From the human T2T-CHM13v2.0 reference genome, Homo sapiens: DNA of 64,000 nucleotides. The position numbers and the translations under genes are program-made. The notes under the pieces are model-generated. The model had not been told where the DNA came from. It saw only the letters and a program-made list of their open reading frames with translations, and ran no database searches. Below, piece by piece: positions 2,864-34,100 of the stretch. Numbering within the stretch: position 1 is the stretch's first letter; every line of letters starts with the position of its first letter. The stretch lies in the NCBI RefSeq assembly GCF_009914755.1, contig NC_060929.1. One strand, given 5' to 3'.

Positions 2864-3646
2864 TCTGAGTTATCATAATGAGAGATAAGTGTATACAGTA
2901 GTTGATTTTTATTAAAATATTATGTATCTCTGTTTTATTTCAGGGGTTAATTTTCAAGTTTTGGGTGATTTCCCCTCTTTGAGTTGCCATTTGTTTCTGG
3001 TTACAACCCCTGAAATAACAGCGCTCTCCAGCCAGAGGGAGATTTGCCCCCCTTCCCCCATGCAGGAGATTCTCCTGTGGCGGCTCTGCAGATCCAGGGA
3101 GCCCCACGACCAGACCTGGGAGAAATTTTGGAAGCTGAGAGCATCCTCACAGCAGCAGGCAGAACAGACAAGTGGGCCTGGGTCTCACAACCCTAAGGCA
3201 TTGAATTCCACCATGGAATCAGATCACAGCCAGACCTTTCCCAGGTCAAGGCAACGTCCACGCAGCCAGGCCCACCCTAGAGGTCCATTGTTCGACCTTG
3301 AGCAGGAGGCAGTCACTTGGCCTAGTGGGACTTCTGACCTGTGAGCTGGGGTTTGATTTAAATATCCAAAATTGGTGAGAACTTATTATGCATTGATCTA
3401 AAACTAATATACTCTCCATCCACAAGTTTCTTCACATTGTGGAAGTGAGAAAAACCAGTGTGTGTGTTTGTGTGTGGGAGTGGGAGGCAGGGAGCTGTGT
3501 CCAGTTGTGGCTAAACTATGGCTCAGCAGAAACACAGCAGCCAAAATCTTTGAAAGGTTCTCATTGCAGATCCATAATCAAACCACCCCAGCCAGAACAA
3601 TTTCTGCCTCTACAGCGCTGTCATGGAGCAGACCTGAATCTCACCC

Positions 3647-5360: not shown

Positions 5361-7904
5361 TAGAGTATTCTTGATTTTATTCATTCTACCAGTGATCCAT
5401 TCAGAAAATCAAACCCGAGTACAGCAACAGAGGAAAAGAAGTTATTAAAATACCAGACAAAGTAGGTTCATCATGAGTTACAAAGTTATTCCACACTCCA
5501 CTTGTTCATACTCTATGTTACCTTCTCTGTGGAAAAGGGTACTTTTTCATCATAGACTAAAGACCTGAGATTTATTATGGAATCACTGTGAACCTTCCCA
5601 GCACAGCTCACAGATATCCACGGTGCTACTTCAGTCTGTTTACCTTTGCCATGTGCCCCCTGAATCACAGAGTATAAGCAAAAAGATCTAAAAGCCCCCA
5701 CAGTTCAGTCTCTCACATTGAGTGGAGAATAACATCTATTCTTTCTTCTTGAAGCCAAAGATACCTCCACAAAATGTTGTTTTATTTCCTCATACACTCA
5801 AGCTTTTGCTCTTAAAATAGAACTTATTGTACATAGAATCTATCTTTGGCTGAGCATTACATAAATTTCTACATTTTACCAAGCATGGGGAAATTCTGTT
5901 TCATACCTCCATATTCTGACATTGTTTAGCTTTCATTTTATTTTACCAACTTCCATGTAAAGGCATATAACAAGTTAGACCAGTGTGTCTTAGAGAGACA
6001 CAAGCAGGGCACAGGTTCTTGGAAGAACTGGTGGAGATGGGAGGGCTCTCTCAGGAATTAAAGTGCTTGAGCAACCAAAAGAAGTAAGATCCAAGAGACT
6101 CATTGTCTCCCAGTCGTTAGATTGCTCTCAGCTCATTCCTTTCCCATGGCGTTGAGGAGTCCTGGGAGCTGTGTTCTGGCAGACGTGGCAGGCCTAGCAG
6201 TCTCTTAACACTAGAGTAAAGAAAACCTGGCCCAAGTAGCCTGAAGTGGGGATGAGCCACTGCAGAGAGCAGTGACAGTGGTGATTGGACACACAAGCTT
6301 AGAACGTTTTTCCGGCCCCCCATAGAACTCAATGCTTTGAGTGGGGTCTGAGTAAAGCTGAACTGCTGAAAACAGAAACAAGTTCCCATCAAGATCTCAG
6401 AGGTCAGCTCAGGAGCAGCAACACAGCGCTGTTTCTCAAAGAGAAAAAATGGATTAGCTGGGAAGGTTCAGTGTCCCTACACATTCAAAATCTTCTCACT
6501 ATGTAATATCATATAGCCACAGCTCTCGAGAAAGGAATCTGTAGAAGGTGGTATCTTTCTAGGCAAAATCTTTGTTAGCTTTCATGGCTGGTTGTATTAC
6601 ATGTTAATGACAATAAAGTTTTTCCTGGAGCTTCATCACTATTCTTAAAGTCTATCTGATAATGTGCCTTTGGAGACTGCCTAGAAAGATGTGGTGTCTG
6701 GTAAGGTGGTGATGAAATTTCTAACAAGTAAAGTGACTGTACTTGACTATTTTCAAAAATTCAATATTTTGGGATAAGCTTAACATCCTCACTGCCTGCC
6801 TTTGCCCCCACAAAAGTACTTAGCATATGCCCAAATAAAGTTTAAGCAATCTATCTCCACTATTCTCAAGCACATGATATCTAGGGTCTAGTCTTTAAAA
6901 GTACAAAGCAAAAAGTTTAAAAGTATAACTCACAAAAAGTTGTACCCAGACTGAAAAAGCTGAAATGATAAATTGATGGGTTTGTGTTTTTTACGGAAGA
7001 GAGTACAACGCAGAGTGCTAACATACATATATAGCAGGGCTCTTAGAAAATGAATGCAGTCAAATCTTTTGTAATAGTTTCTTAAGTAACATGAATATTA
7101 GAGAGACGATTCATGAAATTTTAAGCTAGTGTCATGTCTAGGAATATCAAGACATAGCTAGCATTTTGTAAAAAATATTTTTTTAAACAAATCTATTAAT
7201 GAGATAGATAAGGTGTTTCTTTTTTCTAATTACTTAGTTTTTCTTAGTCACATATTCAAGGGAACATACTAATGTTTGGTAAAATGGTGTTGGTCAAATT
7301 CTACTTCTCACTTTCACCTACCGTGCCATATTCAACTATTGTAAGTACTGGAAATTCAAGTATTGTTCATTTTAATATACTTTCACCAAAGTAGTATTTT
7401 TTATGAGAAAGCCATAATCTCATCAGTAAGCCCTTTCTAACAGAAAATATGAACTAGTAACTGATTATCCAACAGAAAATCCGACAGAAAATATGAACAA
7501 GTAACTGATTATGAGAAGAAAAGAAAACCCAGAAATAATCCTAAGGCAGAGCAACTTCAGGCTTCAGTGTGAAACCATCGCAGTCTCTTGGGAGATGTTT
7601 CTCTCTCAAAGAAGCTGTCTGTTCAAAAGGTGCTCAGGGACCATGCACTTTTCTCCTTCTAACTAGGAAGATGTAGAAAAATGATTCAATTCACTCAAGG
7701 AAAGAGAAATATTTAGTCAAAGTGATTATGAAAAAGGCTGCTTCCATGATTTAGGTGAGACCATGTCAGAGTTTGAGGAAGATGTTAAAATTGAGGGTGA
7801 GTCCAGGGTAGACTGAGCTATGGAAGCTTCAGCACACAGTCTTCTGTCATGGGAAGATGGAGCCGGTACTTATTCCCTCAGGAACAGGATTACTTTTCTA
7901 GTCT

Positions 7905-8215
7905 TGGGCTGGAAATCACATAATTTTTTGGTACTTGATAAAAATGTGGCTCTTAAACTTGAATGTGCAGGCAGGCTTTCTCAGGGGCATCTCTTTTTCA
8001 AATCTCACACATGTCCAGAGCCTCTTCTACAACCTTTGTGTCCAAGGCCTTGACCATTCCAGCCATGACATTGACCACATTCCGGAATTTAGACCACCAG
8101 GGATGGACTGCATCAGACGCCCAATGGGTGCCTCTGACTCCCTTCAACACACAGATATACCACACTGGATTTTACCCACACTGCCTTTCATAGTGTGCAT
8201 TGACTTGTAAATAGA
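7905..8215 (-). pseudogene. Internally deleted TAF11-like remnant downstream of H3Y2
   Basis: rc encodes LMQSI...VMAGMVKALDTKVVEEALDMCEI* with indels. It is followed by sequence homologous to the TAF11L 3' UTR (GGAATAAGTACC...TTCATAATCACTTTGACTAAATATTT). Confidence 0.8.
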
Positions 8216-8396
8216 GAATCTATTTAAATTGTAGAAAATGAAGTTTAATGTATTTTCATAGGAAACTAGCGGAAACATCACAGGAGACAGGGAACATTGA
8301 AAACACAGAGTTGCATACATAAAACCTCCAAGTATACCTGGAATCTATTGTTTCATAAAATGCAATAAACATCTTTTAGCTCAGATTAATAAGAAA

Positions 8397-8402
8397 TTTA
8401 TT
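8397..8402 (-). terminator. Putative poly(A) signal of H3Y2
   Basis: AATAAA on the minus strand about 340 bp past the stop, conserved behind the 29.2-kb paralog (28916-28921). No histone stem-loop seen. Confidence 0.5.
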
Positions 8403-8738
8403 TTGTTTACAGAACCCGTATGCAGACATAGTAAAGAAAAAAAAATAAGATTTCTTTATAATTTTATAGAGTTGAACTGAAACTCGCTCACAGAGACATT
8501 TCCACTTGACACTAGTGCCTTGGGAGCCTCAAAGTAGATGAGACGTTTACTAACAAGCACACACAAACACAACCGCCACCTGATTTCTGCCTGCGTTTCC
8601 ACTGGCAATCTTATGCTTAGCTACCTTTGGACCCCCGGAGGGAAAAGAAACCAAAACAGAACAAAACTTCTCACATCAGAACTACCAGTTACGGGGGAAG
8701 AGAAAAAAGAAAACACAAGCAAACAGAAAAGAAGTCCT

Positions 8739-9182
8739 CTAGAGTGCAAGGTTTCCCAGGAGCGTGGGCTCTCCGGCACCCTCTCCACGGAGGCGGCGGG
8801 CCAGCTGCATGTCTCGGGGCATAATTGTGACGCGCCTGGCATGGATGGCACACAGGTTGGTGTCTTCAAAGAGTTGCACCAGGTAGGCCTCGCTGGCCTC
8901 CTGCAGGGCGCCAATGGCCGCGCTCTGGAAGCGCAGGTCCGGGCTGATGGCCTGGGCGATCTCGCGCACCAGACGCTGGAAGGGCAGCTTGCGCAGGAGC
9001 AGCTGCGTGGACTTCTGGTACTTTCTGATTTCCCGCAGCGCCAGGGTGCCAGGCTTGTAGCGGTGAGGCTTCTTGATCCCTCCTGTAGGCGACGCCCTTT
9101 TTCTGGCGGCTTTGGTGGCCAGGGGCTTCCTGGGGGCCTGCCAGGCGGTGGCTTTGCGGGCGGTCTGCTTGGTGCGCGCCAT
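8739..9182 (-). CDS. H3Y2: Histone variant H3.X (H3.Y2), 147 aa
   Basis: Starts [35 protein letters not shown] and ends [26 protein letters not shown] is the H3.Y-family tail and the C-terminal extension is diagnostic of H3.X. ATG at 9180-9182, 444 bp. Confidence 0.96.
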
Positions 9183-9510
9183 GTTGTGGGGCCTTGTGCT
9201 CTCTCCTCTCTGAGGCTGAGCCTGGCCTGCTGCAGGCAGTACTGGCGTCAGAAAACAAGGGCAGTGGTGCTGTGGACAGGATTCAGAGAGCCTGTGAGTT
9301 GAGATCCATGCGCAGGACTCTCCCACACACTTAACCCCTGCCAACCCAACCCCACACTTACCAGCTCTCAGGTCTGTGGGTCGGAGGCCGGGCTGCTTAG
9401 TCTTCCCGGAAGGTCTTGGGTTTCCTTGGTCTACCCAGCAGCAGCCAGGAGTCTCCCTCGCAGGCAGTCTGTTTCTGACTGGAGATCTCTGTGGTCTCAG
9501 TAAAGCCCTG

Positions 9511-9541
9511 CCTCTTATAAGGAGCTCAGATGATTGCATTA
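9511..9541 (-). promoter_or_regulatory. H3Y2 promoter: DUX4 motif + TATA
   Basis: Minus strand reads TAATGCAATCA-TCTGAGCTCC-TTATAAGAGG. H3.X/H3.Y are known DUX4 targets. Confidence 0.8.
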
Positions 9542-10079
9542 GACTCACCCAGCTCCCTTCCATTGTACTCACTGCTTCACTAGACTCTCAACCTCGTCAG
9601 CGCTGTGAAAACCCAATTTGAGTCCCTGGGTTCTGCACACACCCCAGAGAGGGAGGAACCTCTGCCGTGTGCATCGTGGGAGGGATGGTAGGTGTGAGTT
9701 AGAAAAAATTCTGGGTGCCAAGGAGATTCTGAAAGTTTACATTTCACGACCATCATGGAAGTCATTACAATGAAAAAGACATTTGAATAAAGTTGTATGT
9801 TACCCGACATCGGTGACTGCTGCAAAACACCAAGGGTGCGATCATGAGGTGTCTCTCAGGTTCCCTGAGGATGAGGTGAAACGGGGAGGGAAAGATGGAA
9901 AACCTAAATGATCACTCCTCTAACAGGGATGCTCCTGGGGGCATTTTTCTCCCCCAAAGTGACATTCATGGGAATCTGCGGTAGCCTTCAGGCAAAGTTG
10001 TGGCTTTTTGATCAAATGGTCCTATGTGCCTGTCACTGAGGCTCTCTGGCTCTTTTTTTTTTTTTTTAACCTTGGTACC

Positions 10080-11500: not shown

Positions 11501-12537
11501 TTTTTTATTTTCTCTATGGTTTGCCCTATGACAGCACCACTCAGACAGATGTCAAAGAGATATAGATTTTTTTGCTTTTTCAGCTTTTTACTGATTGTTA
11601 AGACAGAGTAATGACATGGAATCTTTTTTTATGGGCCATCCTGAAAACTGGAACTCCATTTTATTGTTGCTATACATTTGTTACAGTTTATCTTATATTC
11701 AAGATATATGATCAATTACTTGTTCATATAATGACAAATAGGGTTCAGTTATACAAAATATTTAATGTTCAAATCCTACAGAGAGAGCAAATTTTGTTTT
11801 TAATTTCTGTATTTCTTAATCATTTGAAAAATAAAGTAAAAATGGAATATTATCTAAAATAAAATATATTATTATTATATGCATTTCCATTTTAGAGAAG
11901 GACAAAACAGAGATCAATATGTTATTTCAGTCATAAACAAAGGTTACCTTGGGACCAGTTCTTTGGAGGTGAAGGTGTGGAAATGAATGCAGAAGTTAGA
12001 CAGGGTTTCTTTGGTCTGCGTTTCTCTGTCTAGATTTCCATATGGCTCCTAGAGTGTGTTACCATTCTAACATCCTCAAAGATTGCTCTCTGACATGAAG
12101 CAATTTGGGCCAGAACGTGAAAAAAATCATTGTAGAGGAAAATCTGGTATTTAATTTAATTTTTATTTTTGCAAGTTCAAAACTGTTGATTCCCCGGGCA
12201 AAGTTATGAAAAGTATAAATGTTTATAAGGGGAACTATTCCAATGCTTTTAGAAAGCCAGGGCCTTCAGGAAAAAGTATTATAAGGGACGACTCTGTTGT
12301 ATCTCCTACAAATCATATAGGAGCAAAAACATCCTAAGTCATAGCAACTTCAGAATTCAGTGTGATTTCATCACAGTCTCTGAAAAGAGTTTCTTTTCTC
12401 TTTGTAAAAACAGCTCCCCATTCACAGGATTCTCGAGGCTAATGCACCATTCTTCTCTCAACCAGGAAGCACCAGAACAATGCCTGAGCATGCGTGGACC
12501 TCAGAGCTCCAAATATGATGGTGATGATTGTTACTAA

Positions 12538-12808
12538 TTTTGAGACAGGGTCTCACTCTGTTGGCCAGGTGTGAGGGCAGTGGCGCCATCTCTGCTTACT
12601 GCAACTTCCACCTCTGAAGCGCAAGCAATTCTCCTACCACACACTCCAGAATGAGTAGGTGAAACAGCAGGAACTAGTGACCACGCCCAGCTAATTTTTT
12701 TTTTTTTTTTTTTTTAAAGAGAGGCAGTCTGGAACTCTAGTTCAAGTGATTTGCCAGGTCGGCCACCCAAAATGCTGGGATAACAGGAATAAGCCACTGT
12801 GCACGGTC
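12538..12808 (-). mobile_element. Alu (old, diverged)
   Basis: TTTGAGACAGGGTCTCACTCTG...CCCAAAATGCTGGGATAACAGG, with an expanded T-run in the linker. Confidence 0.8.
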
Positions 12809-13019
12809 TGAGATACAAATATGATTGAAAGGGATGATCAAACAGGCTGCTGCCTTCATCTGGGTGTAACCAATGTAAGATGTAAGAAAGATGTTAAATC
12901 ACGGGTAAGTCCAGGATGGGCTGAGATACTGAAGCTCCAGCATAGAAAGTGTGCTCTCATAGAAAGACTAGAAGCAGTACTTTCTCCTCTAAAATCAGGC
13001 CTTTCTATCTGGGCTGGGA

Positions 13020-13345
13020 TCTGGAGGAAGATGGGGTTTTTTTTTTTTTTCTCGATGTTGGGGTAATGGGCCCTGGGCTGTCCCCTGTGAAAGGCTTGGG
13101 CTGCAGCAGGTGCGTGTCTCCCCACATCTCACACATCTCCAGTGCCTCTCCTACCAGCTCCCAGACCAAGACCTGGGTCATTCCAGCCATGGCTACGGCC
13201 ATGACCACGTTCTAGGACACTGAACTGCTGGTGATGGACTGCATCGGACTTCTAAAGGCTGCCTCTCTCCCTTTTCCACCCACAAACAGACCTACACTGG
13301 TTTTTCTGCCTCCCGTAATGTGAAGCGACTGTGGATAAAGAGTAT
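13020..13345 (-). pseudogene. Internally deleted TAF11-like remnant
   Basis: ORF 13005-13208 reads [35 protein letters not shown], matching the TAF11 C-terminal helices. The N-terminal half is missing. Confidence 0.85.
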
Positions 13346-13849
13346 TTTCACATTTTAGAAAGTAGAGATCAATGTTTGTTCATAGCAAACCAGCAGGAGC
13401 AGTCTGTGAAACACGGAGCTGCATATAGAAAAAGTTAAAGTGTGGATCCCATCTACTGTTTGATCAATTGCAGGAGACACTGTCTATTTGGCACCTATAC
13501 GTTTACTTGGTTTTCAATAATATTAAGGAACACATTTCTCCACAATTGTTCTTGATGTGAAATGCAGAAACGTGTTCACTGAGACATTTCCACAAATGTA
13601 TTAGACCCTCAATGTAGATTGAAAGTTTACAAACAAAACAAATTGAAACACAGTCACTACCTGTGATTTCTGCTTCTGTTTTTATTCCCAATCATATGCT
13701 TAGCTACTTTTTGACCCTATGCGAGAAACGATACTAACTCTGAACAGAACTTCTAACATCATATCTATCATTAACAGAGAGAAAACACAACACAACAAAA
13801 AAGAAACCATTAACAGAGAAAAACACAACACAACACAAAGGAACCATTT

Positions 13850-13975
13850 GCAATGCAAGATTTCCCAGGAATGTGGGCTCTTAAGCACCCTCTCCATGGA
13901 GGCTGTGGGCCAGCTGCATGTCTCTGGACATAATTGGGAAGCTCCTGGCATGGATGACACACAGTTTGGTATCTT
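13850..13975 (-). pseudogene. H3.Y-like 3' fragment
   Basis: rc encodes DTKLCVIHARSFPIMSRDMQLAHSLHGEGA*EPTFLGNLAL. The 5' part is cut off by a rearrangement junction at about 13975. Confidence 0.85.
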
Positions 13976-14007
13976 ACAAAAGTTCCGATGTAAATGTGTT
14001 GCTGGAA

Positions 14008-14660: not shown

Positions 14661-14974
14661 ATTGAAATAGTATTTTCATATTCCCCTCACCCAGCTCATT
14701 TTATTTTCAGAGTATTTGATAAAACACTTGTTTCCCTGTGAGTTAGAGATTTTTTTCTCAGACATTGAAGTTTTCTAATGTGCAACTTCATAAAACATCT
14801 CGTTTTTACTGTAAATAGTTTCTTTATTGTTGTGAAATGTGAACTTTGCGATTCTGTGAGGAAAACTGAATTCTGAAAGGCCCCCTGCATTTCCCACCAC
14901 TCAGAGACTCGCCCTGCATCTGCCCCACCTTAAGTGTGGGCAGAACCATGAATTGATGAGCCTGCCCAAATCCC

Positions 14975-15050
14975 TGATAAGGTTAGGGATACCCTGAACC
15001 ATTAGCTGTTAAGTGCTGGGTCTAATTCAATCATCTGAGCTCTTTATAAG
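14975..15050 (+). promoter_or_regulatory. TAF11L promoter: DUX4 motif + TATA
   Basis: TAATTCAATCA (15023-15033)-TCTGAGCTCTT-TATAAG (15045-15050), plus a degenerate distal site TGATAAGGTTA at 14975-14985. Confidence 0.75.
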
Positions 15051-15662
15051 GGACTGAACCTCCCTGAGATTACATTCCCCTGTGGGAGATCCCTCATCAC
15101 TGGCTGTGCAGACCCAGGGAGCCTCACAGCCCAGACCTGGGCAACACGTGTAGGAGCTGAGAGCATCCTCACGGCAGCAGGCAGAACAAACAAGTGGGCC
15201 TGGGGCTCACTACCCTAAGGCATTGAATTCTGCCACCAACTTGAATCAGATCGAAGCCAGACCCTTCTCAGGTGAAGGCAATGACCACACAAACAAACCC
15301 ATCCTGGAAGTCCCTCTTGTGACTCTGAGCAGGAGGCAGTCACTTGGCCTAGTAGAACTTCTGACCTGTGAGCTGGTGTTTGTTTTAAATATCCAAAATT
15401 GGTGAGAATTCGTTCTGCATTGATCTAAAATTAATATACGCTCCATGCACAAGTTTCTTCACATTGTGGAAGTGAGAAAATTCGGTGTGTGTGTTTGTGT
15501 GTGGGAAGGTGAGGCCGGGAGCTGTGTCCAGTTGTGGCTAAACTATGGCTCAGCAGAAACACAGCAGCTAAAATCTTTGAAAGGTTCTCATCGCAGATCC
15601 ATAATCAAACCACCCCAGCCAGAACTTCTGCCTGTACAGCTGCTGTCACGGAGCAGACTTGA

Positions 15663-16268
<606 letters not shown>

Positions 16269-19480: not shown

Positions 19481-19815
19481 ATGGATGGTACACAGCTAGG
19501 TGACTTCAAAGAGGTGCACCAGGTAAGCCTCACTGGGCTCCTGCAGGGCTCCAATGGTAGCGCTCTGGAAGCGCAGGACCAGGATGATGGCCTAGGAGAT
19601 CTTGCGCACCAGGCGCTGGAAGGGCAGCTTGAGGAGTAACAGCTGCGTGGACTTCTGGTACTTTCTGATTTCGCACATTGCCAGGCCTGTAGCGGTGAGG
19701 CTTCTTGATCCCTCCTGTAGGCAGTGCCCTTTTGCTGGCGGCTTTAGTGGCCAGGGTCTTCGTGGCGCCTGCCAGGCGGTGGCTTTGCTGGCTGTTGGCT
19801 TGGTGCATGCAGTGG
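19481..19815 (-). pseudogene. H3.Y-like pseudogene, start codon lost, frameshifted, 3' truncated
   Basis: Translated patches [25 protein letters not shown] and [11 protein letters not shown]. It ends at about 19481, where it joins sequence homologous to about 7040. Confidence 0.9.
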
Positions 19816-20146
19816 CCTGGGGCTGTGGTCTCTCTCCTGTCCTTGGGCTGAGCCAGGTTAACTGGAGACAGCGCTGGTTTCAGACTGCAATGGTGGTGGG
19901 GCTGTGGACAAAAATCAGAGAGTCTGCGAGTTGAGATCCATGCAGAAGACTCTTCAGACACTTAACCCCTTCCAAGCCAGCCCCAGACTTACCAGCTCGC
20001 AGGTATGTGGGTCAGAGGTCCTGCTGCTCGGTCTCCCGGGGGTCCTGGGCTTCCTTGGTCTACACATCAGCTGTGGGGAATCTCCCTCCCCCCAGGCAGC
20101 CTGGCTCTGGCTGGACATCTGTGTAGTCTCAGCCAAGTCCAGCCTA

Positions 20147-20173
20147 TTATAAGGGGCTCAAATGATTGCATTA
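20147..20173 (-). promoter_or_regulatory. DUX4 motif + TATA upstream of H3.Y-like pseudogene
   Basis: TGATTGCATTA at 20163-20173 (rc TAATGCAATCA) and TTATAA at 20147-20152. Confidence 0.65.
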
Positions 20174-21029
20174 GACCTATGCAGCTACCTTCCATTGCTC
20201 TCAGTGCTTGGCCAGACCCTCAACCTCATCAGGGTTGTGAAAACCCAATCAAGTCCTGGGTTCTCCATGCAGCCCTGGGAGGGCTGAACCTCTGGACTGT
20301 GCCTCATGGGAGAGATGATAGGTGAGAGTTAGCTAGAATCTAGGTGCCAAAGAGATCCCAAAAGTTTACATTTCATGATCATCATGGAAGTTACAATGAA
20401 AAAGACATTTCAATACAGTTGCACATTAGATGACTTCCGTGACTGCCGCAAAACACCAAGGGTGCCATCGTGAGGTGTCTCTCAGGTTCTCTGAGGATGA
20501 GTTGAAACCGGGAGGGATGGATGGAAAATCAAAAAGGTCACTCCTCTATTAGGGATGCTCCGGGGGACATGTTTTCTCCCCCAAAGTGATATTCGTGGAA
20601 ATTTGGGGGTAGCCTTTGGGGGAAGCTGAGACCTTTTGATCAAATGGTCATATATGCCTGTCACTGAGGCATCCTGGCTCCTTTTTTTACTTTGACGCCA
20701 GGGCTGAGTCTTGTTTCCATTGCCCATTTTGGAAATGGCATGAGGCCCAGTGAAGGCCCTGAGTTCACTGAACCACTGAACCCAGGTCACAGCTGATACC
20801 TTCATATTTCTGGCTCCATGAGAAAAAATAAAGCAAACAAAAACAAACAAACAATCAAACAATACACATACAAAAGGCCCCTATTTTGGTACACTATTAA
20901 CAGGCTTCTCTGATACTTGTAGTAGAAATTTAATACCCTTGTATGCAATGCACGGACCATGCACAGAACAGGAAATCCCATGATAATCAATACTCACAAA
21001 ATAAGTTCATATTCCTGTTTTAAAAGGAG

Positions 21030-22940: not shown

Positions 22941-23979
22941 ACCATGAAATCTTTTTATTTTCTCTTTGTATTTGCCTCTGACATCATCACTCAGAGAGAT
23001 TTCCAAGGAGATATTGATTCTTTGCTTTTTTAGTTTTTTTTTATGATTGTGAAGATAGAGTGATGACATGGAATTTCCTTAGGAGTCACCCCAAAAACTG
23101 GAACTCCATTTTATTTTTGATATATATTTATTACTGTTTATCTTATATACATGGTATTTGGCAATTGCATGTCAGTATAATTACAAATAGGCTTCAATTA
23201 CACAAAATATTTAATGCTCAAATCCTACAATGAGAGGACATTATATTTTAATACAATAATCTGCAAAATAAACTAAAAATAAAACATCACATAGTATAAT
23301 AATATAGTTATTATATGCATTTCTGTTTTAGACAAGCATGAAACACACATCAATATGTTATTTCAGCCATTAATATAGGTTACACTGGGACCAGCTCTTT
23401 GGAGGCAAATGTGTGGAAACGAATGAAGAGATTAGACAGGGTCTCTGGGGTTTGTGTTTCTCTGTGTAGTTTTTCATGCAGCTCCTACAGTGTGTTACCA
23501 TCCTAACATCATGAAAGATCACTCCGTGACATAAAACAATCTTGGTCTGAATGTGAAAAAACCCATTTTAGAGGAAAAACTAATTTTTAATTTCATTTTT
23601 ATTTTTGCAAGCTGAAAAACGGTTGATTTCCCAGGAAAAGTTATGGAAAAGTATTAAATGTTTACAAGGTAACTCTTCCAGTGCTCTTAGAAAGCTCGGG
23701 ACCTTCTGGATAGAGTATTGTAAGGGAAGACTTACTGTTTGTTTTATCTCTTTAAAATCACATTTGAGCAAAAACATCCAAAGTCATAGCAACTTCAGGA
23801 TTCAGTGTGAATCCACCATAGTCTCTTAAAAGGATGTCTTTTTTCTCTATCTGAAAACAGCTCCCCGTCCACAGGATGCCCAAGGCCCATGCACCTTTCT
23901 TCCTCCAACTAGGAAGACCCAGAAAAGCACCCACTCATGCATGGACCTCAGAGAACCAAATATAATGACAATGATTGTT

Positions 23980-24262
23980 AGTTTTTTGAGACAGAGTCTT
24001 ACTCTGTTGGCCAGGTGGAAGGGCAGTGATGTCAATTTGGCTCCCTTTAACTTCCACCTCCACAGCTCAATCAGTCCTTCTACCTCAGCCTCCAAGTAGG
24101 TGAAAGCACAGGCACCAGCAACCACAACCAACTAATTTTTTTTTTTGAAGGGAGGTTTTGCCAAGATTCCTGGCCTAGACAGGAACTCCTGAGCTCAACT
24201 GATCTGCTGCCCTTGGCCACCCAAAGTGCTGGTTTTACAGAGATGAGCCATTGTGGCTGGTC
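23980..24262 (-). mobile_element. Alu (old), paralog of 12538
   Basis: TTTTTGAGACAGAGTCTTACTCTG...CCCAAAGTGCTGG. Confidence 0.8.
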
Positions 24263-24339
24263 TGAGATATAAATATGATTGAAAGGGATTATGAAACCGG
24301 CTGCTGCCTTCATCTGGGTGAGACCAATATCTTCTGAGA

Positions 24340-24680
24340 GGAAGATGATTATTTTATTTTATTTTTGTACTGGATGTTGGGGAAGCGGCACCTGGGCTGT
24401 CCTGTATGTAAGGCCTTTTTCTAATGCCCGGGGTGTAACAGGGGCATTTTCCCACATCTCACACATGTCCAGAGCTTCTCCTACCACCTCCCCAACAAAG
24501 ATCTGTGTCATTACAGCCATGTCCATGGCAGTAACCTGGTTCTAGGACACTGACCTGCACCTGACGGAAAGCATCAGACTTCTACAGGGTGCCTCTATCC
24601 CTTTCCCACCATAAACACAACCACACTGGTTATTCTGCCAACCCTAATGTGAAGTGACTTGTGGATACAGAGTCTATTCA
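24340..24680 (-). pseudogene. Internally deleted TAF11-like remnant
   Basis: rc encodes AMDMAVMTQIFVGEVVGEALDMCEMWENAP. Same 5' junction as the other remnants. Confidence 0.8.
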
Positions 24681-24789
24681 TACAGAGTCTATTCATATTG
24701 TAGAAAGTAGAGATCAATGTATGTTCATAGCAAACTAGGAGGAACAGCCCAGGTGACAGGGAACATTGCAAACATGGAACTGCCAGCCC

Positions 24790-24860
24790 GTGAGTTGAAA
24801 TCCATGTACAAGATGCTCCCACACACTGAGCCCCTTCCAACCCACCCCAGACTTACCAGC
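24790..24860 (-). pseudogene. Remnant of H3.Y 5' leader (CDS and promoter deleted)
   Basis: GTGAGTTGAAATCCATG...CAGACTTACCAGC is homologous to 9294-9365. Its flanks jump to homologs of about 8310 and about 9895. Confidence 0.65.
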
Positions 24861-27030: not shown

Positions 27031-27902
27031 GGTTATACATTTGTTACCGTTTATCTTATATTCAGGGTATTGGATCAATTACATATCAGTATAATTACAA
27101 ATAATGTTCAATTACACAAAATATTTAATGGTCAAATCCTACACTGAGAAGGAATTTTATTTCTAATTTTTGTGTTCTTATGGAATAATTTGGAAAATCA
27201 AGTAACAATTGAACATTATATAGCATGAATATGTATTGTCATCATATGTATTTCTGTTTTAGAGAAGCACTAAACAGAAATAAACATGTTATTTCAGCCA
27301 TAAACCTAGTTTACATTGGGGCAATTCCTTGGAGGTGAAGGCGTGGAAAGGAGTGCCCAGATGAGACGGGGTATCTGGGGTCTGTCCTTCTCTTAGTTTT
27401 CCATGTGGCTCCCAGAGTGTGTTACCATTCTGACATCATCAAACATCACTCCCCAACATGAAACAGTCTTGGTAGGAAAGTAAAAAGAGTCATTTTAGAG
27501 AAGAATACTTTTTTAATTTCATTTTTATTTTTACAAGCTGGAAAAGAGGTGCTTGATTCCCCAGGAAAAGTTATGGAAAAGTACTAAATGTTTCCAAGGG
27601 CAGCTACTCCAGTACTCTTAGAAAGCCCAGCACCTTCAGGATAGAGTATTGTAAGGGAAGACTTCGTTGTGTCTGCTTAAAATCACATATGAGCAAAAAT
27701 CGTAAGTTATATCCACTTCAGGATTCGGTATGAATCCACCATAGTCCCTTAAAAGGGTTTCTTTCTTCTCTCTGAAAGCAGCTCCCCTTCCAAAGGATGC
27801 TCAAGGCGCATGTGCCTTTGTTCTTCCAACTAGGAAGCCCTAGAACAATGCCTGCTCATACATGGACCTCAGAGACCCAAACATGATGATAATGATTGTT
27901 AT

Positions 27903-28195
27903 TTTCTTGAGCCAGGGTCTCACTCTGTCAGCCAGGTAGGAGGGCAGTGGTTCCATCTCAGCTCACTATAATCTCCACTTCTGGAGCTCAAGAGATCCTC
28001 CTACCTCAGCCTCTGGAGTAGCTGAAACAGCAGGCACCAACCACCACATTTAGCTTTTTTTTTTTCCATTTTAATTGTAGAGGGGAAGTTTTGTCATGTT
28101 GCCCAGGCTGGTCTGGAACTCCTGAGTTCAAGTGATCCACCAACCCTGGTCTCCCAAAATGCTCTCTGATCATAGAAATAAGCCATTGTGCCCCA
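27903..28195 (-). mobile_element. Alu (old), paralog of 12538
   Basis: GAGCCAGGGTCTCACTCTGTC...GTTGCCCAGGCTGGTCTGGAACTCCTG. Confidence 0.8.
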
Positions 28196-28399
28196 TCTGA
28201 GATACAAATATGATTGGATGACATTATTAATCAGGCTGCTGCCTTCATCTGGGTGAGACTAATGTAAGATGTAAGAAAGATGTTAAGTCATGGATAAGTC
28301 CAGGAGGGGCTGAGATACTGAAGCTCCAGCGTACAGAGGGCTCTGTCATAGAAAGACTGGAACCAGTACTTTTTCCTCTAAGATCAGGCCTTTCTTTCT

Positions 28400-28745
28400 A
28401 GGCTGCAGCCCAGAGGAAGATGACTTTGCTTTGTAGTAGGTGTTTGGGAAGTGGCCACTGGGCTGTCCCCTGAGAAAGGTCTCCCTCCAATGCTTGGGCT
28501 GCAGTGGGGCATGTCTCCCCACATCTCAAACATAAGCAGGACCTCTCCTACCACTTCGCTAACCAAGACCTGTATCATTCCAGCCATAGCCACGGCTATG
28601 ACCACATTCTAGGACGCTCAGCTGCTGCTGATGGACTGCATCGGACTTCTAACAGGTGCCTCTCTCCCTTTCCCACCCACAAACAGACCCACACTGGTTT
28701 TTGCCTCCCATAATGTGAAATGACTTGTGTATAGAGACTCTATTC
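28400..28745 (-). pseudogene. Internally deleted TAF11-like remnant
   Basis: ORF 28384-28605 reads IAVAMAGMIQVLVSEVVGEVLLMFEMWGDMP. Confidence 0.85.
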
Positions 28746-29236
28746 ACATTTTAGAAAGTAGGGTGTAATGTATGTTCATAGCAAATACACACACAGGAAC
28801 AGCCCAGGAGACAGGGAACATTGAGAACACGGAGCTGCATATAGGAAAAGTCAAAGTGTGGATCGCATCTGCTGTTTGATGGAGGAGACATTATCTATTT
28901 GCCACCAATAAGAAATTTATTTGGTTTTCAATAACATTAATGAACAAATTTTTTCACAATTGTTCTTGATTTGAACTGTTGAAAGGCGTTCAGTGAGAAA
29001 TTTCCGGTTGACATGAATGCATTAGACTCTCAATGTAGATGGAAGGTTTACAAACAAAAGAAAACAGAAACAGGCATACCCGTTATATCTGCCTGTGTTG
29101 TTACTCCTAATCATGTGCAGGGCTGCTTTTGGACCCCGTGAAGGACATAAAAGCAAAAGTGAAGAGAACTGCTAATATCAGAACTATGATTAACACAGAG
29201 AAATTGAAAAACACAACCAAACGGAAACAAAGCCGT

Positions 29237-29679
29237 CTAGAGCGCAGCGTTTCCCAGGAGCGTGGGCTCCTCAGCACCCTCTCCGCGGAGGTGGCGGGAC
29301 AGCTGCATGTCTCTGGGCATGATTGTGACATGCCAGGGATGGATAACACATGGGTTGTTGTCTTTAAATAGGGGGACCAGGTAGGCCTCGCTGTTCTCCT
29401 GAAGTCGCCAGTGGCCGCACATTGGAAGCGCAGGTCTGGGTTGATGGCCTGGGTGATCTCACGCATTAGGCATTGGAAGGTCAGCTTGTGCAGAAGCAGC
29501 TGCGTGGACTTATGGTACTTCCTGATTTTGTGCAGTGCCAGGGTGCCAAGCCTGTGGCGGTGAGGCTTCTTGATCCCTCGTGTAGCCAGGACCCTCTTGC
29601 CAGCAGCTTTGGTGGCCAACAGCTTCCTGGGGGCCTGCCAGGCGGTGGCTTTGAGGTCAGTCTGCTTAATGCGAGCCAT
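29237..29679 (-). pseudogene. Full-length H3.X/Y-like copy with 1-bp frameshift
   Basis: [19 protein letters not shown]...[14 protein letters not shown], then a frame shift near 29405. The other frame gives [15 protein letters not shown]...[15 protein letters not shown]. Length is 443 bp versus 444 in H3Y2. Confidence 0.92.
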
Positions 29680-30008
29680 GGTGTAGGGCTGTGGCCTTTC
29701 CCTTGTCACTGGGCTGAGCCTGCTGAACTGGAAGCAGTGCTGGTACCAGACAGCAATGGTGTTGGGGCTGTGGGCAGGATTCAGAGTCTGTGTGTTGGGA
29801 TCTATGCAGAAGGTGCTCCCATACACTTAGCCCCTTCCAACCCAGCCCCATACTTACCAGCTTACTGATCAGTGGGTCTGAGGTCCCTGTATTCAGTCTC
29901 CTTGAGTAGCCTTGGGATTCCTAGGTCTAAACACAGCAGTGGGGAATCTTTCTCCCAGGCAGTCTTACTCTAGCTGGAGATCTCTGTGATCTCAGCCAAA
30001 TTCAGTCA

Positions 30009-30094
30009 TTTATAGGAGGCTTGGATGATTGGATTAGACCCACCCAGCTACCTTCCACTGCGTTCTGTGCTGCAGCAGATGCTTAACCTAATCA
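30009..30094 (-). promoter_or_regulatory. TATAAA + two perfect DUX4 motifs upstream of frameshifted H3.Y copy
   Basis: TTTATA at 30009-30014, TGATTGGATTA at 30026-30036 (rc TAATCCAATCA), TAACCTAATCA at 30084-30094. Confidence 0.75.
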
Positions 30095-30279
30095 GGGCTG
30101 TGAAAGCCCATTAAGTCCCTGCATTCTTCCTCACCCAAGAGAGGTACAGACCTCTGGATTGTGCATTGTGGGAGGGATGGTAAATGAGATCTGTCACTTA
30201 ACGTTTTGGGTGCCGAATGGATTCTGAAAGTTTACATTTTATTTACATCAAGGAAATAGTTACTTAAAGTTGCATGTTA

Positions 30280-32728: not shown

Positions 32729-34100
<1,372 letters not shown>

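What the first reader, a model, noticed from the sequence alone, without database searches (positions are those of the whole stretch)
7700..9600. H3.X/Y appears nested inside a former TAF11L transcription unit and uses its DUX4-TATA promoter
Seen: reading the minus strand, H3Y2 begins GCTGGGTGAGTC-TAATGCAATCA-TCTGAGCTCC-TTATAAG. TAF11L at 15015-15050 reads GCTGGGTC-TAATTCAATCA-TCTGAGCTCT-TTATAAG. Homology continues into the leader: CTGAGACCACAGAGATCTCCAGTCAGA versus CTGAAATAACAGCGCTCTCCAGCCAGA at about 3010 (21/27), and GGGAGATTCCCCA is shared by the 20.1-kb H3.Y copy and the array leader. After the H3 ORF and its poly(A) signal, TAF11L sequence resumes on the same strand and in order: upstream region, 3' half of the CDS, then 3' UTR. 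Inference: an H3.3-type retrocopy landed in the 5' leader of a TAF11L copy, captured its DUX4-responsive promoter, and the host ORF decayed. DUX4 induction of both families is established. I am not aware of this shared origin being described, but I cannot check the literature.
Basis: partly seen in the sequence, partly recalled or inferred. Interest (0 to 1): 0.82.

Follow-up and report, generated by a model that had tools for sequence, protein, structure and literature searches.

The report
H3.Y retrogene sharing TAF11L's LTR promoter
The histone gene H3Y2 is a reverse-transcribed copy of the H3-3A messenger RNA that sits just behind an ancient retroviral LTR, and a sister copy of that LTR drives the neighbouring TAF11L genes, which explains why the embryonic factor DUX4 switches on both families.

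Summary
On the minus strand, H3Y2 is preceded by the DUX4-site/TATA cassette and leader found in TAF11L units. It is followed, colinearly, by a 5'-truncated TAF11L remnant (E 6e-70).

New here:
- **The H3 body.** Window 9278-8242 is a full-length processed copy of the intron-containing chr1 gene I take to be H3-3A. Its introns are gone and its ends match those of at least six independent H3-3A pseudogenes. It has no poly(A) remnant. A 20-32 bp target duplication is suggestive only.
- **The shared cassette and leader.** They belong to a dispersed MLT1-type LTR, and the retrocopy sits at the LTR's 3' edge. Independent LTR insertion is excluded, because all chr5 H3Y-family loci share the same junctions.
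- **TAF11L.** It is itself a processed copy of five-exon TAF11.

The LTR and leader of H3Y units split from TAF11L units long before the H3Y units radiated. The TAF11L-derived 3' part split at the same time as that radiation. So gene conversion, later juxtaposition or recombinant TAF11L units remain open.

Nine literature searches found co-location and DUX4 induction described, but not this shared origin. I rate it a new member of a known kind, of moderate interest.

The parts
9581..9906 (-). Upstream region colinear with the region upstream of the TAF11L cassette (T2 14668-14990). Whether it is LTR or flank is not determined.
   Evidence: BLAST gives 59% over 423 nt, E 3.6e-16. MAFFT blocks reach 0.63-0.71 identity.
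9290..9580 (-). LTR-derived promoter and leader of the H3Y2 unit. It is paralogous to TAF11L2 about 14994-15438, with about 170 nt of the TAF11L leader missing.
   Evidence: MAFFT alignment. An nhmmer profile of these copies hits dispersed repeat copies across profile positions 322-808 (E 4.9e-12 and 2.4e-8; reversed control 0 hits). The repeat family's similarity ends at T2 about 15438.
9531..9541 (-). DUX4-type binding motif TAATGCAATCA, 41-51 nt upstream of the RefSeq transcription start.
   Evidence: Pattern scan gives 11 hits against 0.64 expected. The motif form is from PMC12376486. DUX4 ChIP-seq signal near the H3.X start is reported in PMC6886682.
9514..9520 (-). TATA-like box TTATAAG at -30 to -24. 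The RefSeq exon starts at 9490.
   Evidence: Sequence and the hub annotation of NM_001371919.1. The same box sits at the same alignment column in TAF11L2 and the array units.
9279..9310 (-). Left copy of the duplicated target (end of the LTR plus a few flank bases).
   Evidence: Homology to uninterrupted TAF11L leaders ends 5-24 nt before the landmark CACAAG in 6 of 9 comparisons. Scores are modest (z 3-5).
8242..9278 (-). Full-length processed retrocopy of the H3-3A mRNA: 5' UTR, ORF and whole 3' UTR. The 5' end is uncertain by about 10 nt.
   Evidence: It is colinear with independent processed pseudogenes on chr2, 4, 13, X, 6 and 15 (65-69% identity, E 1e-106 to 1e-147). It matches the chr1 gene exon by exon: 9183-9056, 9059-8900 and 8905-8242. 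Its ends coincide with those of the pseudogenes.
8739..9182 (-). H3Y2 (H3.X) ORF, 147 aa.
   Evidence: Translation. Pfam PF00125, E 8.8e-43. RefSeq coding part from the hub annotation.
9270..9361 (-). GT...AG interval in the leader (CTG|GTAAGT ... CCACAG|C). This is a possible 92-nt intron that RefSeq does not use.
   Evidence: Sequence. The donor is present in all 8 family copies aligned, and CCACAG in 7 of 8 (CCACAA in L002). TAF11L units read GCTGGTG or GCTGGGG at the donor position.
8397..8402 (-). AATAAA now used (RefSeq 3' end 8381). The parent reads AGTAAA here.
   Evidence: Alignment with the parent exon and 3 pseudogenes. AATAAA is present in 4 of 6 H3Y-family copies.
8254..8259 (-). 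Decayed original H3-3A poly(A) signal (ATTAAA in the parent, ATGAAA here). The mRNA-derived sequence ends at 8242, and no A tract follows.
   Evidence: Alignment of 3' ends.
8138..8241 (-). Right copy of the duplicated target plus spacer, equal to TAF11L2 about 15422-15521.
   Evidence: Local alignments z 6-16, with 0 of 300 shuffles reaching the score. In all 12 comparisons homology starts at least 20 nt upstream of the landmark CACAAG. In 4 other family loci it starts 7-30 nt after the insert end.
7525..8137 (-). TAF11L remnant (TAF11 exon 4-5 equivalent and 3' UTR), joined to the spacer at a junction that skips TAF11L2 about 15522-16028. The reading frame is broken.
   Evidence: BLAST E 6.4e-70. 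The same junction is seen in the units at 13.2, 24.6 and 28.7 kb. Stops and frameshifts appear in the translations.
14994..15438 (+). The corresponding uninterrupted LTR promoter and leader of TAF11L2: motif 15023-15033, TATA-like box 15044-15050, target of the H3 insertion about 15422-15447.
27034..30263 (-). H3P18 unit, a second complete composite unit. Other partial units lie at 11671-13984, 19481-20389 and 23121-24860.
   Evidence: Colinear BLAST blocks.

Best explanation
H3Y2 (H3.X) is a full-length, L1-type processed retrocopy of the H3-3A mRNA. It lies a few bases beyond the 3' end of a solo MLT1-type (MaLR) LTR.

That LTR supplies a DUX4 binding motif, a TATA-like box, the transcription start and about 200 nt of leader. 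It has lost the AATAAA that other members of its family carry, so transcripts can run on into whatever lies behind it. A paralogous copy of the same LTR, with the same flanks, drives TAF11L, which is itself a processed copy of TAF11.

In the H3Y units the retrocopy is followed by about 100 nt of the common spacer and then by the last 40% of the TAF11L ORF and its 3' UTR. So an H3Y unit is a rearranged paralogue of the TAF11L monomer.

How it works, with the status of each step:
- DUX4 binds the LTR motif (from the literature).
- Transcription starts 30 nt after the TATA-like box (from the annotation).
- The H3 ORF is translated.
- The message ends at a newly gained AATAAA inside the old 3' UTR, and the TAF11L remnant is not part of it (inferred).

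One founding composite unit was then copied to at least ten places on both sides of the array. These include the gene for H3.Y proper.

My leading version of the history is that the retrocopy landed in one early LTR-TAF11L paralogue. The 3' TAF11L part was later homogenised with, or re-acquired from, a TAF11L unit at the event that made the roughly 510-bp junction.
For: Retrocopy:
- Exon-by-exon match to an intron-containing chr1 gene, and colinear matches to 8 independent pseudogenes (E down to 1e-147).
- In the end alignments, the 3' ends of 6 pseudogenes coincide with window 8242 and the 5' starts of 4 of 5 with about 9278.

Shared unit:
- Colinear homology upstream (E 3.6e-16) and downstream (E 6.4e-70).
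- A leader segment shared only with TAF11L1.
- Of 5 other chr5 loci examined, 4 have the spacer (from T2 15424/15430) 7-30 nt after the insert end, then TAF11L from T2 16042/3. Four of the 5 have the cassette.

LTR:
- A 16-base hallmark from the leader occurs 332 times genome-wide against 25 for the control.
- 22 dispersed copies align with the TAF11L leader, and their similarity stops at T2 about 15438.
- 4 of 25 dispersed loci hit the profile, and 2 span the cassette. One of these carries TAATCTAATCA and a TATA-like box at the same positions. The reversed control gave 0 of 25.
- PMC3018141 reports an MLT1E3 LTR in the monomer (passage seen).

Function:
- The motif is enriched 11 against 0.64 expected, and the cassette is the most conserved block.
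- The RefSeq start lies at -30 from the TATA-like box.
- DUX4 ChIP signal near the H3.X, H3.Y and H3.Z starts and DUX4 induction are reported in PMC6886682 (section read). TAF11-like induction is reported in PMC8120133 (passages).

TAF11L as a retrocopy: five parent exons are joined.

Target duplication: the left flank ends and the right flank begins at overlapping positions of the uninterrupted leader.
Against: - No poly(A) remnant follows the retrocopy in any copy.
- The target duplication would be long (20-32 bp), and its left half rests on weak scores (12-19; z 2-5 against T1 and 1-4 against T2, the 24.8-kb unit weakest).
- Timing conflict. The H3 part has a stem of 0.246 before the family's common ancestor, and the LTR and leader differ from TAF11L units by a branch of 0.41 (100% support). 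In the TAF11L-derived part the H3Y units share no private substitutions (stem 0.000 under constraint; monophyly not rejected, AU p 0.19).
- Distance ratios tell the same story. Between unit types relative to within H3Y units, the ratio is 1.7-2.6 in 4 blocks left of the insert, 1.5 in the spacer and 0.6-1.2 in 3 blocks right of the junction. A simple 'insert, then decay' history does not predict this.
- The 3' UTR is 0.33-0.46 (K2P) from its parent, with fewer transitions than transversions. Other H3-3A pseudogenes are at 0-0.03. This is far more than expected for a primate-restricted copy.
- The LTR subfamily was not named by any tool here.
- A search seeded on the cassette itself gave 15 off-locus hits, of which only 1 extended beyond the motif.
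- DUX4 binding and the transcription start were not tested here.
Confidence: 0.8

Rival explanations
1. Later juxtaposition. Two old paralogous copies of the LTR with its flank each trapped a different retrocopy, H3-3A behind one and TAF11 behind the other. A 3' fragment of a TAF11L unit was joined behind the H3 unit only at the start of the H3Y family's spread. On this reading H3.Y was never inside a TAF11L transcription unit.
For: All TAF11-derived sequence in H3Y units lies right of the junction, because TAF11 homology starts at T2 15666 while the junction's left edge is about 15521. Right of the junction, H3Y units and TAF11L units radiate from one point (stem 0.000). Left of it they are separated by 0.41.
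Against: It needs a non-homologous join that happens to restore the same order and strand as in a TAF11L unit. The spacer left of the junction is colinear with the TAF11L spacer. Gene conversion explains the same numbers.
Confidence: 0.25
2. A single ancestral unit, LTR-H3-spacer-TAF11L (full length). Today's TAF11L units, the macrosatellite monomers included, are recombinants that took an H3-free paralogous LTR, or lost H3 between the duplicated target copies. The H3Y units lost the 5' half of TAF11L.
For: The stem-to-crown ratio is 0.246/0.175 for H3 and 0.321/0.268 for TAF11L. Both retrocopies therefore look much older than the radiation of units and are of similar age. A deletion between the target copies would leave exactly the 'empty' site seen in TAF11L units.
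Against: A plain loss of H3 does not explain the long 0.41 branch between the two unit types in the LTR and leader, so an extra recombination with another LTR copy is needed. No trace of H3 sequence is seen at the TAF11L site.
Confidence: 0.2
3. The cassette is a common LTR that was inserted independently next to H3.Y and next to TAF11L, so the two families share no unit ancestry.
For: The cassette is LTR-derived, and LTRs of this family often carry a DUX4 motif (PMC3836709 Table 1).
Against: Homology continues outside the LTR on the 3' side into the spacer and the TAF11L CDS and 3' UTR, in the same order and strand. Private features are shared: the 8-base loss inside the hallmark and the loss of the LTR's AATAAA in TAF11L units, and the leader segment shared with TAF11L1.
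Confidence: 0.02
4. The resemblance is chance or low-complexity matching.
For: The core is short (37 bp).
Against: BLAST E-values run from 3.6e-16 to 6.4e-70 on both sides. 0 of 100 shuffles reach the motif count. Reversed controls give 0 hits.
Confidence: 0.01

Closest known systems
DUX4-bound MaLR/ERVL LTRs acting as promoters of adjacent genes (Young et al. 2013, PMC3836709)
   Same: An old MaLR-type LTR with a DUX4 motif and a TATA-like box starts a transcript that runs into downstream sequence. MLT1E3 appears in that paper's Table 1 with an outlying RNA-seq activation estimate of 24.9x. I suspect this reflects the chr5 array, but that is not shown.
   Different: Here paralogous copies of a single LTR insertion serve two unrelated retrogenes, and the whole unit has been amplified into a macrosatellite and its flanks. 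That paper does not mention TAF11 (0 occurrences).
Retrogenes that acquire expression by landing behind a pre-existing promoter or in the 5' UTR of a host gene (general knowledge, recalled)
   Same: A processed, promoterless mRNA copy becomes expressed from a promoter already in place upstream. A GT...AG interval exists in the borrowed leader.
   Different: The promoter is an LTR, the 'host' is itself a retrogene, and the order of the two insertions is not settled.
H3.5 (H3-5), a testis H3 variant evolutionarily derived from H3.3 (abstract of PMC4714512 in the listing)
   Same: A primate histone H3 variant gene derived from an H3.3 gene.
   Different: As I recall, H3.5 derives from H3-3B. H3.Y derives from H3-3A, is DUX4/LTR-driven, is multicopy and is far more diverged from its parent.
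DUX4 in the D4Z4 macrosatellite (PMC3836709 introduction)
   Same: A retrogene embedded in a 3.3-3.4 kb primate macrosatellite unit.
   Different: The parent gene is different and no LTR promoter is known to me there. H3Y units flank the TAF11L array and are not monomers of it.

Membership tests
Processed (L1-mediated) retrocopy of H3-3A | Parent introns absent, exons joined precisely | tested here: met
   Three parent exon blocks abut in the window, at 9183-9056, 9059-8900 and 8905-8242.
Processed (L1-mediated) retrocopy of H3-3A | Copy begins and ends at the ends of the mRNA | tested here: met
   In the end alignments, the 3' ends of 6 independent pseudogenes coincide with 8242, and the 5' starts of 4 of 5 coincide with about 9278 within about 10 nt. 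The fifth is 5'-truncated.
Processed (L1-mediated) retrocopy of H3-3A | Poly(A) tail at the 3' end | tested here: not met
   No A tract follows 8242 in any of the copies inspected, whereas the 6 other pseudogenes have one.
Processed (L1-mediated) retrocopy of H3-3A | Target-site duplication | tested here: inconclusive
   The flanks overlap by 20-32 nt on the uninterrupted TAF11L leader. The right side is strong (z 6-16) and the left side weak (z 2-5 against T1, 1-4 against T2). This is longer than usual.
Histone H3 (Pfam PF00125) | Histone fold domain, open frame | tested here: met
   E 8.8e-43 over residues 8-132, 147-aa ORF.
MaLR (MLT1-type) solo LTR promoter | Membership of a dispersed repeat family with a defined 3' end | tested here: met
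   Hallmark 332 against 25 control. 22 copies align, and similarity ends at T2 about 15438. Profile hits E 4.9e-12 and 2.4e-8.
MaLR (MLT1-type) solo LTR promoter | Named subfamily (MLT1E3) | not testable with these tools
   No Dfam or RepeatMasker is available. PMC3018141 states that the monomer holds an MLT1E3 LTR but gives no coordinates. 'MLT1-type' is my recalled recognition of the hallmark.
MaLR (MLT1-type) solo LTR promoter | The DUX4 motif and TATA-like box are intrinsic to the LTR | tested here: met
   The dispersed copy L091 carries TAATCTAATCA and a TATA-like box at the aligned positions. L090 has a decayed version. Only 2 of 25 copies reach this far.
Direct DUX4 target promoter | DUX4 occupancy and DUX4-dependent transcription from this start | not testable with these tools
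   From the literature only: PMC6886682 (section read). Motif match at 9541-9531.
Paralogue of the TAF11L macrosatellite monomer | Colinear homology on both sides of the H3 insert, same strand and order | tested here: met
Paralogue of the TAF11L macrosatellite monomer | TAFII28 (PF04719) coding remnant | tested here: inconclusive
   Five truncated remnants start at Pfam positions 24-28, each with one TAG, beside other H3Y-type units. The remnant of the H3Y2 unit itself is not among the 56 Pfam matches. It is seen by DNA only and in broken translations.
TAF11L as a processed retrocopy of TAF11 | Five parent exons joined without introns | tested here: met
   T2 15666-16686 matches five exon blocks at C6:34.700-34.711 Mb. 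The name TAF11 is assigned from the position and is recalled.

The most novel reading that the evidence does not exclude
A single MLT1-type LTR at 5p15.1 acted as a retrogene trap. It captured two unrelated processed mRNAs, H3-3A and TAF11, one behind the other, and so wired both into the DUX4 programme of the cleavage-stage embryo. The present H3.Y genes and the whole TAF11L macrosatellite would then be reciprocal rearrangement products of that one LTR-H3-TAF11L unit. On this reading the array monomers descend from a unit that once held H3.Y.
Probability: 0.2. Interest if true: 0.65.

Novelty: new member of a known kind. Interest (0 to 1): 0.5.

Why it matters
H3.X/H3.Y and the TAF11L genes are among the strongest DUX4 targets in FSHD muscle and in the human 8-cell embryo. 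Until now they were described only as 'interspersed'.

Tracing both to one LTR-derived promoter gives a concrete, testable cause for their co-regulation. It names the parent of H3.Y as H3-3A. It defines the exact promoter, leader and poly(A) elements needed for reporters, for knock-ins and for read mapping on T2T.

It also sets up an evolutionary question that primate assemblies could answer: which retrocopy came first, and did the macrosatellite arise from a unit that held both? In addition, it flags that the array monomers carry a changed DUX4 motif, whereas the H3Y units and the flanking TAF11L copies keep a perfect one.

Tried and rejected
1. The unit at 23121-24860 lacks the H3 body, and I first took it for a paralogous empty site. 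I rejected this. The unit keeps both copies of the flank and 65 nt of the insert's 3' end. Its closest paralogue, L005, shares its odd 5' breakpoint but has the full insert. It is therefore a deletion derivative.

2. I first listed about 130 nt between the RefSeq poly(A) site and the right flank as unexplained. It is H3-3A 3' UTR.

3. I first read the CACAG 'acceptor' and part of the right flank as TAF11L-derived. The pseudogene alignments place them in, or at the edge of, the H3-3A copy.

4. LTR test by whole-genome DNA search with the TAF11L2 promoter and leader: all 40 scored hits were chr5 copies, so the test was uninformative.

5. LTR test seeded on the cassette itself: 15 off-locus hits with 2 mismatches against 2 for the control. 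Only 1 of the 15 extended beyond the motif, and the hits did not match each other. This is weak.

6. A motif hit at 33136 showed no cassette context.

7. A search for TAF11 5' UTR homology in the 227-nt spacer found none upstream of T2 15666.

9. Literature (9 searches). I read passages or sections of 11 papers. None states that H3.X/Y lies in a TAF11L-type unit, shares its LTR promoter or derives from H3-3A specifically. Figures and supplements, such as Resnick Fig. S1 and Tremblay Fig. 1, were not visible and could bear on this.

Full report
**The observation**

Read on the minus strand, 9555-9514 holds a DUX4-type motif (TAATGCAATCA, 9541-9531), a 10-base spacer and TTATAAG (9520-9514). TAF11L2 has the same arrangement at 15016-15050.

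- BLAST gives 77.6% over 58 nt for the cassette against TAF11L2, and 84-86% over 37 nt against 8 array units.
- There is a weaker but significant colinear match further upstream: 9906-9490 against 14668-15074, 59%, E 3.6e-16.
- Behind the H3 gene, 8136-7525 matches the 3' part of the TAF11L2 ORF and its 3' UTR (66% over 648 nt, E 6.4e-70).
- The 21/27 leader match to the TAF11L1 pseudogene, and the shared GGGAGATTCCCCA, both sit in register in a multiple alignment.
- The DUX4 motif occurs 11 times in the window against 0.64 expected. I took the motif form from a passage of PMC12376486. Five of the 11 hits are the cassette motifs of these units: T1, T2 and three H3Y-type units. Four more lie on the opposite strand just upstream of a cassette.
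- Between the two kinds of unit, the cassette is the best-conserved block: 0.73-0.82 identity against 0.30-0.71 elsewhere.

**Anatomy in the window**

Five H3Y-type units lie on the minus strand:

| Unit | Window position | State |
|---|---|---|
| H3Y2 | 7500-9900 | complete |
| unannotated | 11671-13984 | lacks its 5' part |
| H3P17 | 19481-20389 | lacks its 3' part |
| unannotated | 23121-24860 | lacks the H3 body |
| H3P18 | 27034-30263 | complete |

Where the region is present, every unit keeps three things:
- TAF11L-monomer sequence around the promoter;
- a piece of about 100 nt equal to TAF11L2 15424-15521;
- after one identical junction, TAF11L2 from about 16029 onward.

The junction skips about 510 bp. 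That is the end of the leader, the ATG and about 119 codons. The remnants have stops and frameshifts. H3Y2 encodes a 147-aa histone-fold protein (PF00125, E 8.8e-43), and TAF11L2 a TAFII28 protein (PF04719, E 6e-33).

**The H3 body is a processed H3-3A retrocopy**

The window's genome turned out to be searchable.

- Window 9275-8242 aligns in one colinear block with independent intronless copies on chr2, 4, 13, X, 6 and 15 (65-69% identity, E 1e-106 to 1e-147).
- It aligns exon by exon with an intron-containing gene at chr1:225.25-225.26 Mb: 9183-9056, 9059-8900 and 8905-8242. From its position I take this gene to be H3-3A. The name is recalled.
- The pseudogenes all stop at the base matching window 8242 and then carry poly(A). 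Four of the 5 whose 5' ends I aligned also start at the same place, where H3Y2 shows the same sequence with CpG decay.
- So the insert is a full-length mRNA copy, 9278-8242.
- It has no poly(A) remnant.
- The parent's ATTAAA signal reads ATGAAA here. The site RefSeq uses depends on an AATAAA (8402-8397) where the parent has AGTAAA. That change is shared by 4 of 6 family copies.

**The shared promoter and leader are LTR sequence**

PMC3018141 says the 3.4-kb monomer contains an MLT1E3 LTR, a partial Alu and a Charlie element, but gives no coordinates (passages seen).

- A 16-base hallmark from the TAF11L leader occurs 332 times in the genome against 25 for the reversed control. The dispersed copies nearly all carry the same 8 extra bases, which the chr5 units lack.
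- Of the 25 loci fetched, 22 had that form and were aligned. Three with other gap lengths were dropped.
- The 22 align with TAF11L1 and TAF11L2. Their mutual similarity stops at TAF11L2 about 15438, which is therefore the repeat's 3' end. At the place where they have AATAAA, the chr5 units have none.
- A profile of the chr5 promoter and leader copies hit 4 of the 25 loci and 0 of 25 reversed controls. Two hits run from just upstream of the DUX4 motif to the repeat's end. One has a perfect DUX4 motif and a TATA-like box at the aligned positions.
- The cassette is thus intrinsic to a dispersed LTR.
- A separate search seeded on the cassette was weak. Of 15 off-locus hits, only 1 extended.
- In PMC3836709, Table 1 lists MLT1E3 with an outlying DUX4-dependent RNA-seq estimate of 24.9x. 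This would fit an origin in this array, but the paper does not say so.

**Where the retrocopy sits**

Homology of the left flank to uninterrupted TAF11L leaders ends 5-24 nt before a landmark in 6 of 9 comparisons. In the other 3 it ends earlier. Homology of the right flank starts 20-75 nt before the same landmark in 12 of 12 comparisons.

With the insert's ends now fixed, the two flanks overlap by 20-32 nt. The overlap spans the last bases of the LTR and a few bases of flank. This looks like a target-site duplication. It is long, however, and its left half is statistically weak.

**Same structure at every family member**

I examined five other chr5 loci.
- L002, L004 and L005 have the whole insert in one block.
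- L003 has it in two blocks.
- L010 has only the 5' part.
- Four of the five have the spacer piece 7-30 nt after the insert end (7 nt in three of them), followed by TAF11L from 16042/3.
- Four of the five have the cassette.

L003 encodes the H3.Y-type ORF and so is H3Y1. L005 shares the unusual 5' breakpoint of the 24.8-kb unit but keeps the insert. The 24.8-kb unit is therefore a deletion derivative and not an empty site.

A genome-wide Pfam search found 56 TAFII28 matches:
- 49 on chr5 starting at position 2;
- 2 parent exons on chr6;
- 5 truncated remnants starting at positions 24-28.

TAF11L itself is a processed copy of a five-exon chr6 gene. Detectable homology begins at TAF11L2 15666, which is 227 nt after the LTR's end.

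**History: what does not fit**

*The H3 segment (exon-4 equivalent).* The branch from the parent to the family's common ancestor is 0.246 and the mean crown depth is 0.175.

*The TAF11L-derived segment (exon-5 equivalent, rooted on the chr6 parent).* The H3Y units are not even recovered as a clade. Monophyly is not rejected (AU p 0.19), but under that constraint their stem is 0.000 and the TAF11L stem is 0.080.

*The LTR and leader segment.* The two unit types are separated by a branch of 0.41 with 100% support.

*Distance ratios.* Between unit types relative to within the H3Y family, the ratio is 1.7-2.6 in four blocks left of the insert, 1.5 in the spacer and 0.6-1.2 in three blocks right of the junction. 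L002 was left out because of its very long branch.

*What follows.* The retrocopy and its LTR were already old and distinct when the family spread. The TAF11L-derived tail has the same age as that spread. Three histories fit:
- insertion into an early LTR-TAF11L paralogue, followed by gene conversion of the tail;
- later attachment of a TAF11L fragment;
- an ancestral LTR-H3-TAF11L unit, from which today's TAF11L units are recombinants.

I cannot separate them with one genome.

*Excess divergence.* The family's 3' UTR is 0.33-0.46 (K2P) from its parent, with fewer transitions than transversions. Three other pseudogenes are at 0-0.03. This is much more than a primate-restricted neutral copy should show.

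**How it most likely works**

- DUX4 binds the LTR motif at -51 to -41 (literature: PMC6886682 reports ChIP signal near the H3.X, H3.Y and H3.Z starts, and induction; section read).
- Initiation is 30 nt after the TATA-like box (RefSeq annotation).
- The LTR lacks its own AATAAA, so the transcript continues through the leader into the H3-3A copy (inferred).
- The transcript ends at the gained AATAAA.
- The TAF11L units use the sister LTR in the same way. DUX4 induction of the TAF11-like array is reported in PMC8120133 and PMC12776069 (passages).

**Comparison and novelty**

The closest known cases are LTR promoters bound by DUX4, and retrogenes that borrow an existing promoter. Both are established kinds.

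Published so far, from passages seen:
- H3.X and H3.Y are intron-free and closer to H3.3 (PMC2935562);

Nine searches found no statement that the two families share a unit or an LTR promoter, or that H3-3A is the parent. Figures and supplements were not visible to me.

**Verdict**

The architecture and the shared LTR promoter are well supported. 'Nested in a former TAF11L transcription unit whose ORF decayed' is only one of three histories still open.

Noticed in passing
window 35155, 38589, 42023 ... 62627 (+), and genome-wide: Every array monomer carries TAAT(G/C)CAGTCA, an A-to-G change inside the DUX4 motif. This holds for 9 of 9 units in the window and for 42 of 42 one-mismatch array hits genome-wide. 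The H3Y-type units and the diverged flanking TAF11L copies (TAF11L1, TAF11L2, C5:17604347, 17610556, 17631646) keep a perfect motif. Only the first two array units (35106, 38540) have a second perfect motif, on the other strand about 50 nt upstream.
   Followed up: partly
window 13409-13984 (-) and 19481-20389 (-): An unannotated H3 3' fragment and H3P17 (5' part only) overlap by about 35 nt of the H3 coding sequence. They are separated by 5.5 kb that carries TAF11L2 on the other strand, so they may be two halves of one split unit. The same pair recurs distal to the array (C5:17602671-17603081 and C5:17615000-17615324), which points to a large duplication on both sides of the array.
   Followed up: partly
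window 8739-9182 (-): The H3Y2 coding sequence is more similar (80-81% over about 400 nt) to intronless H3 genes at C1:148.9 Mb than to its own parent's exons (about 76%), although both UTRs derive from H3-3A. The differences look like AT-to-GC changes at silent sites. I did not test for conversion.
   Followed up: no
window 8242-8738 (-) and family loci L002-L005: The 3' UTRs of the H3Y family are 0.33-0.46 (K2P) from the parent, with fewer transitions than transversions (for example 65 against 78). Other H3-3A pseudogenes differ by 0-3%. This rate or age anomaly is unexplained.
   Followed up: partly
window 9270-9361 (-): A consensus-like splice donor (CTG|GTAAGT) is found in all 8 H3Y-family copies aligned and is absent from TAF11L units. 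About 90 nt downstream lies CCACAG (CCACAA in L002). RefSeq shows the transcript unspliced. PMC2935562 mentions earlier intron predictions for H3.X that its authors could not confirm.
   Followed up: no
window 2869-3003 (+), TAF11L1 pseudogene: TAF11L1 has an insertion of about 130 nt directly after its DUX4 motif, which displaces the TATA-like box. It also keeps a leader segment that the array has lost.
   Followed up: no
window about 8137 (-), TAF11L2 about 16029: The right edge of the shared junction lies 7-15 nt upstream of the TAF11 exon 3/exon 4 boundary as carried in the retrocopy (16036-16044). This may be coincidence.
   Followed up: no
L068 = G000:C19:56352707-56354327: One off-locus copy of the cassette pattern, on chr19, also aligns to about 160 further profile positions of the chr5 leader (E 5.5e-5). 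It is a related LTR copy. Its neighbourhood was not examined.
   Followed up: no
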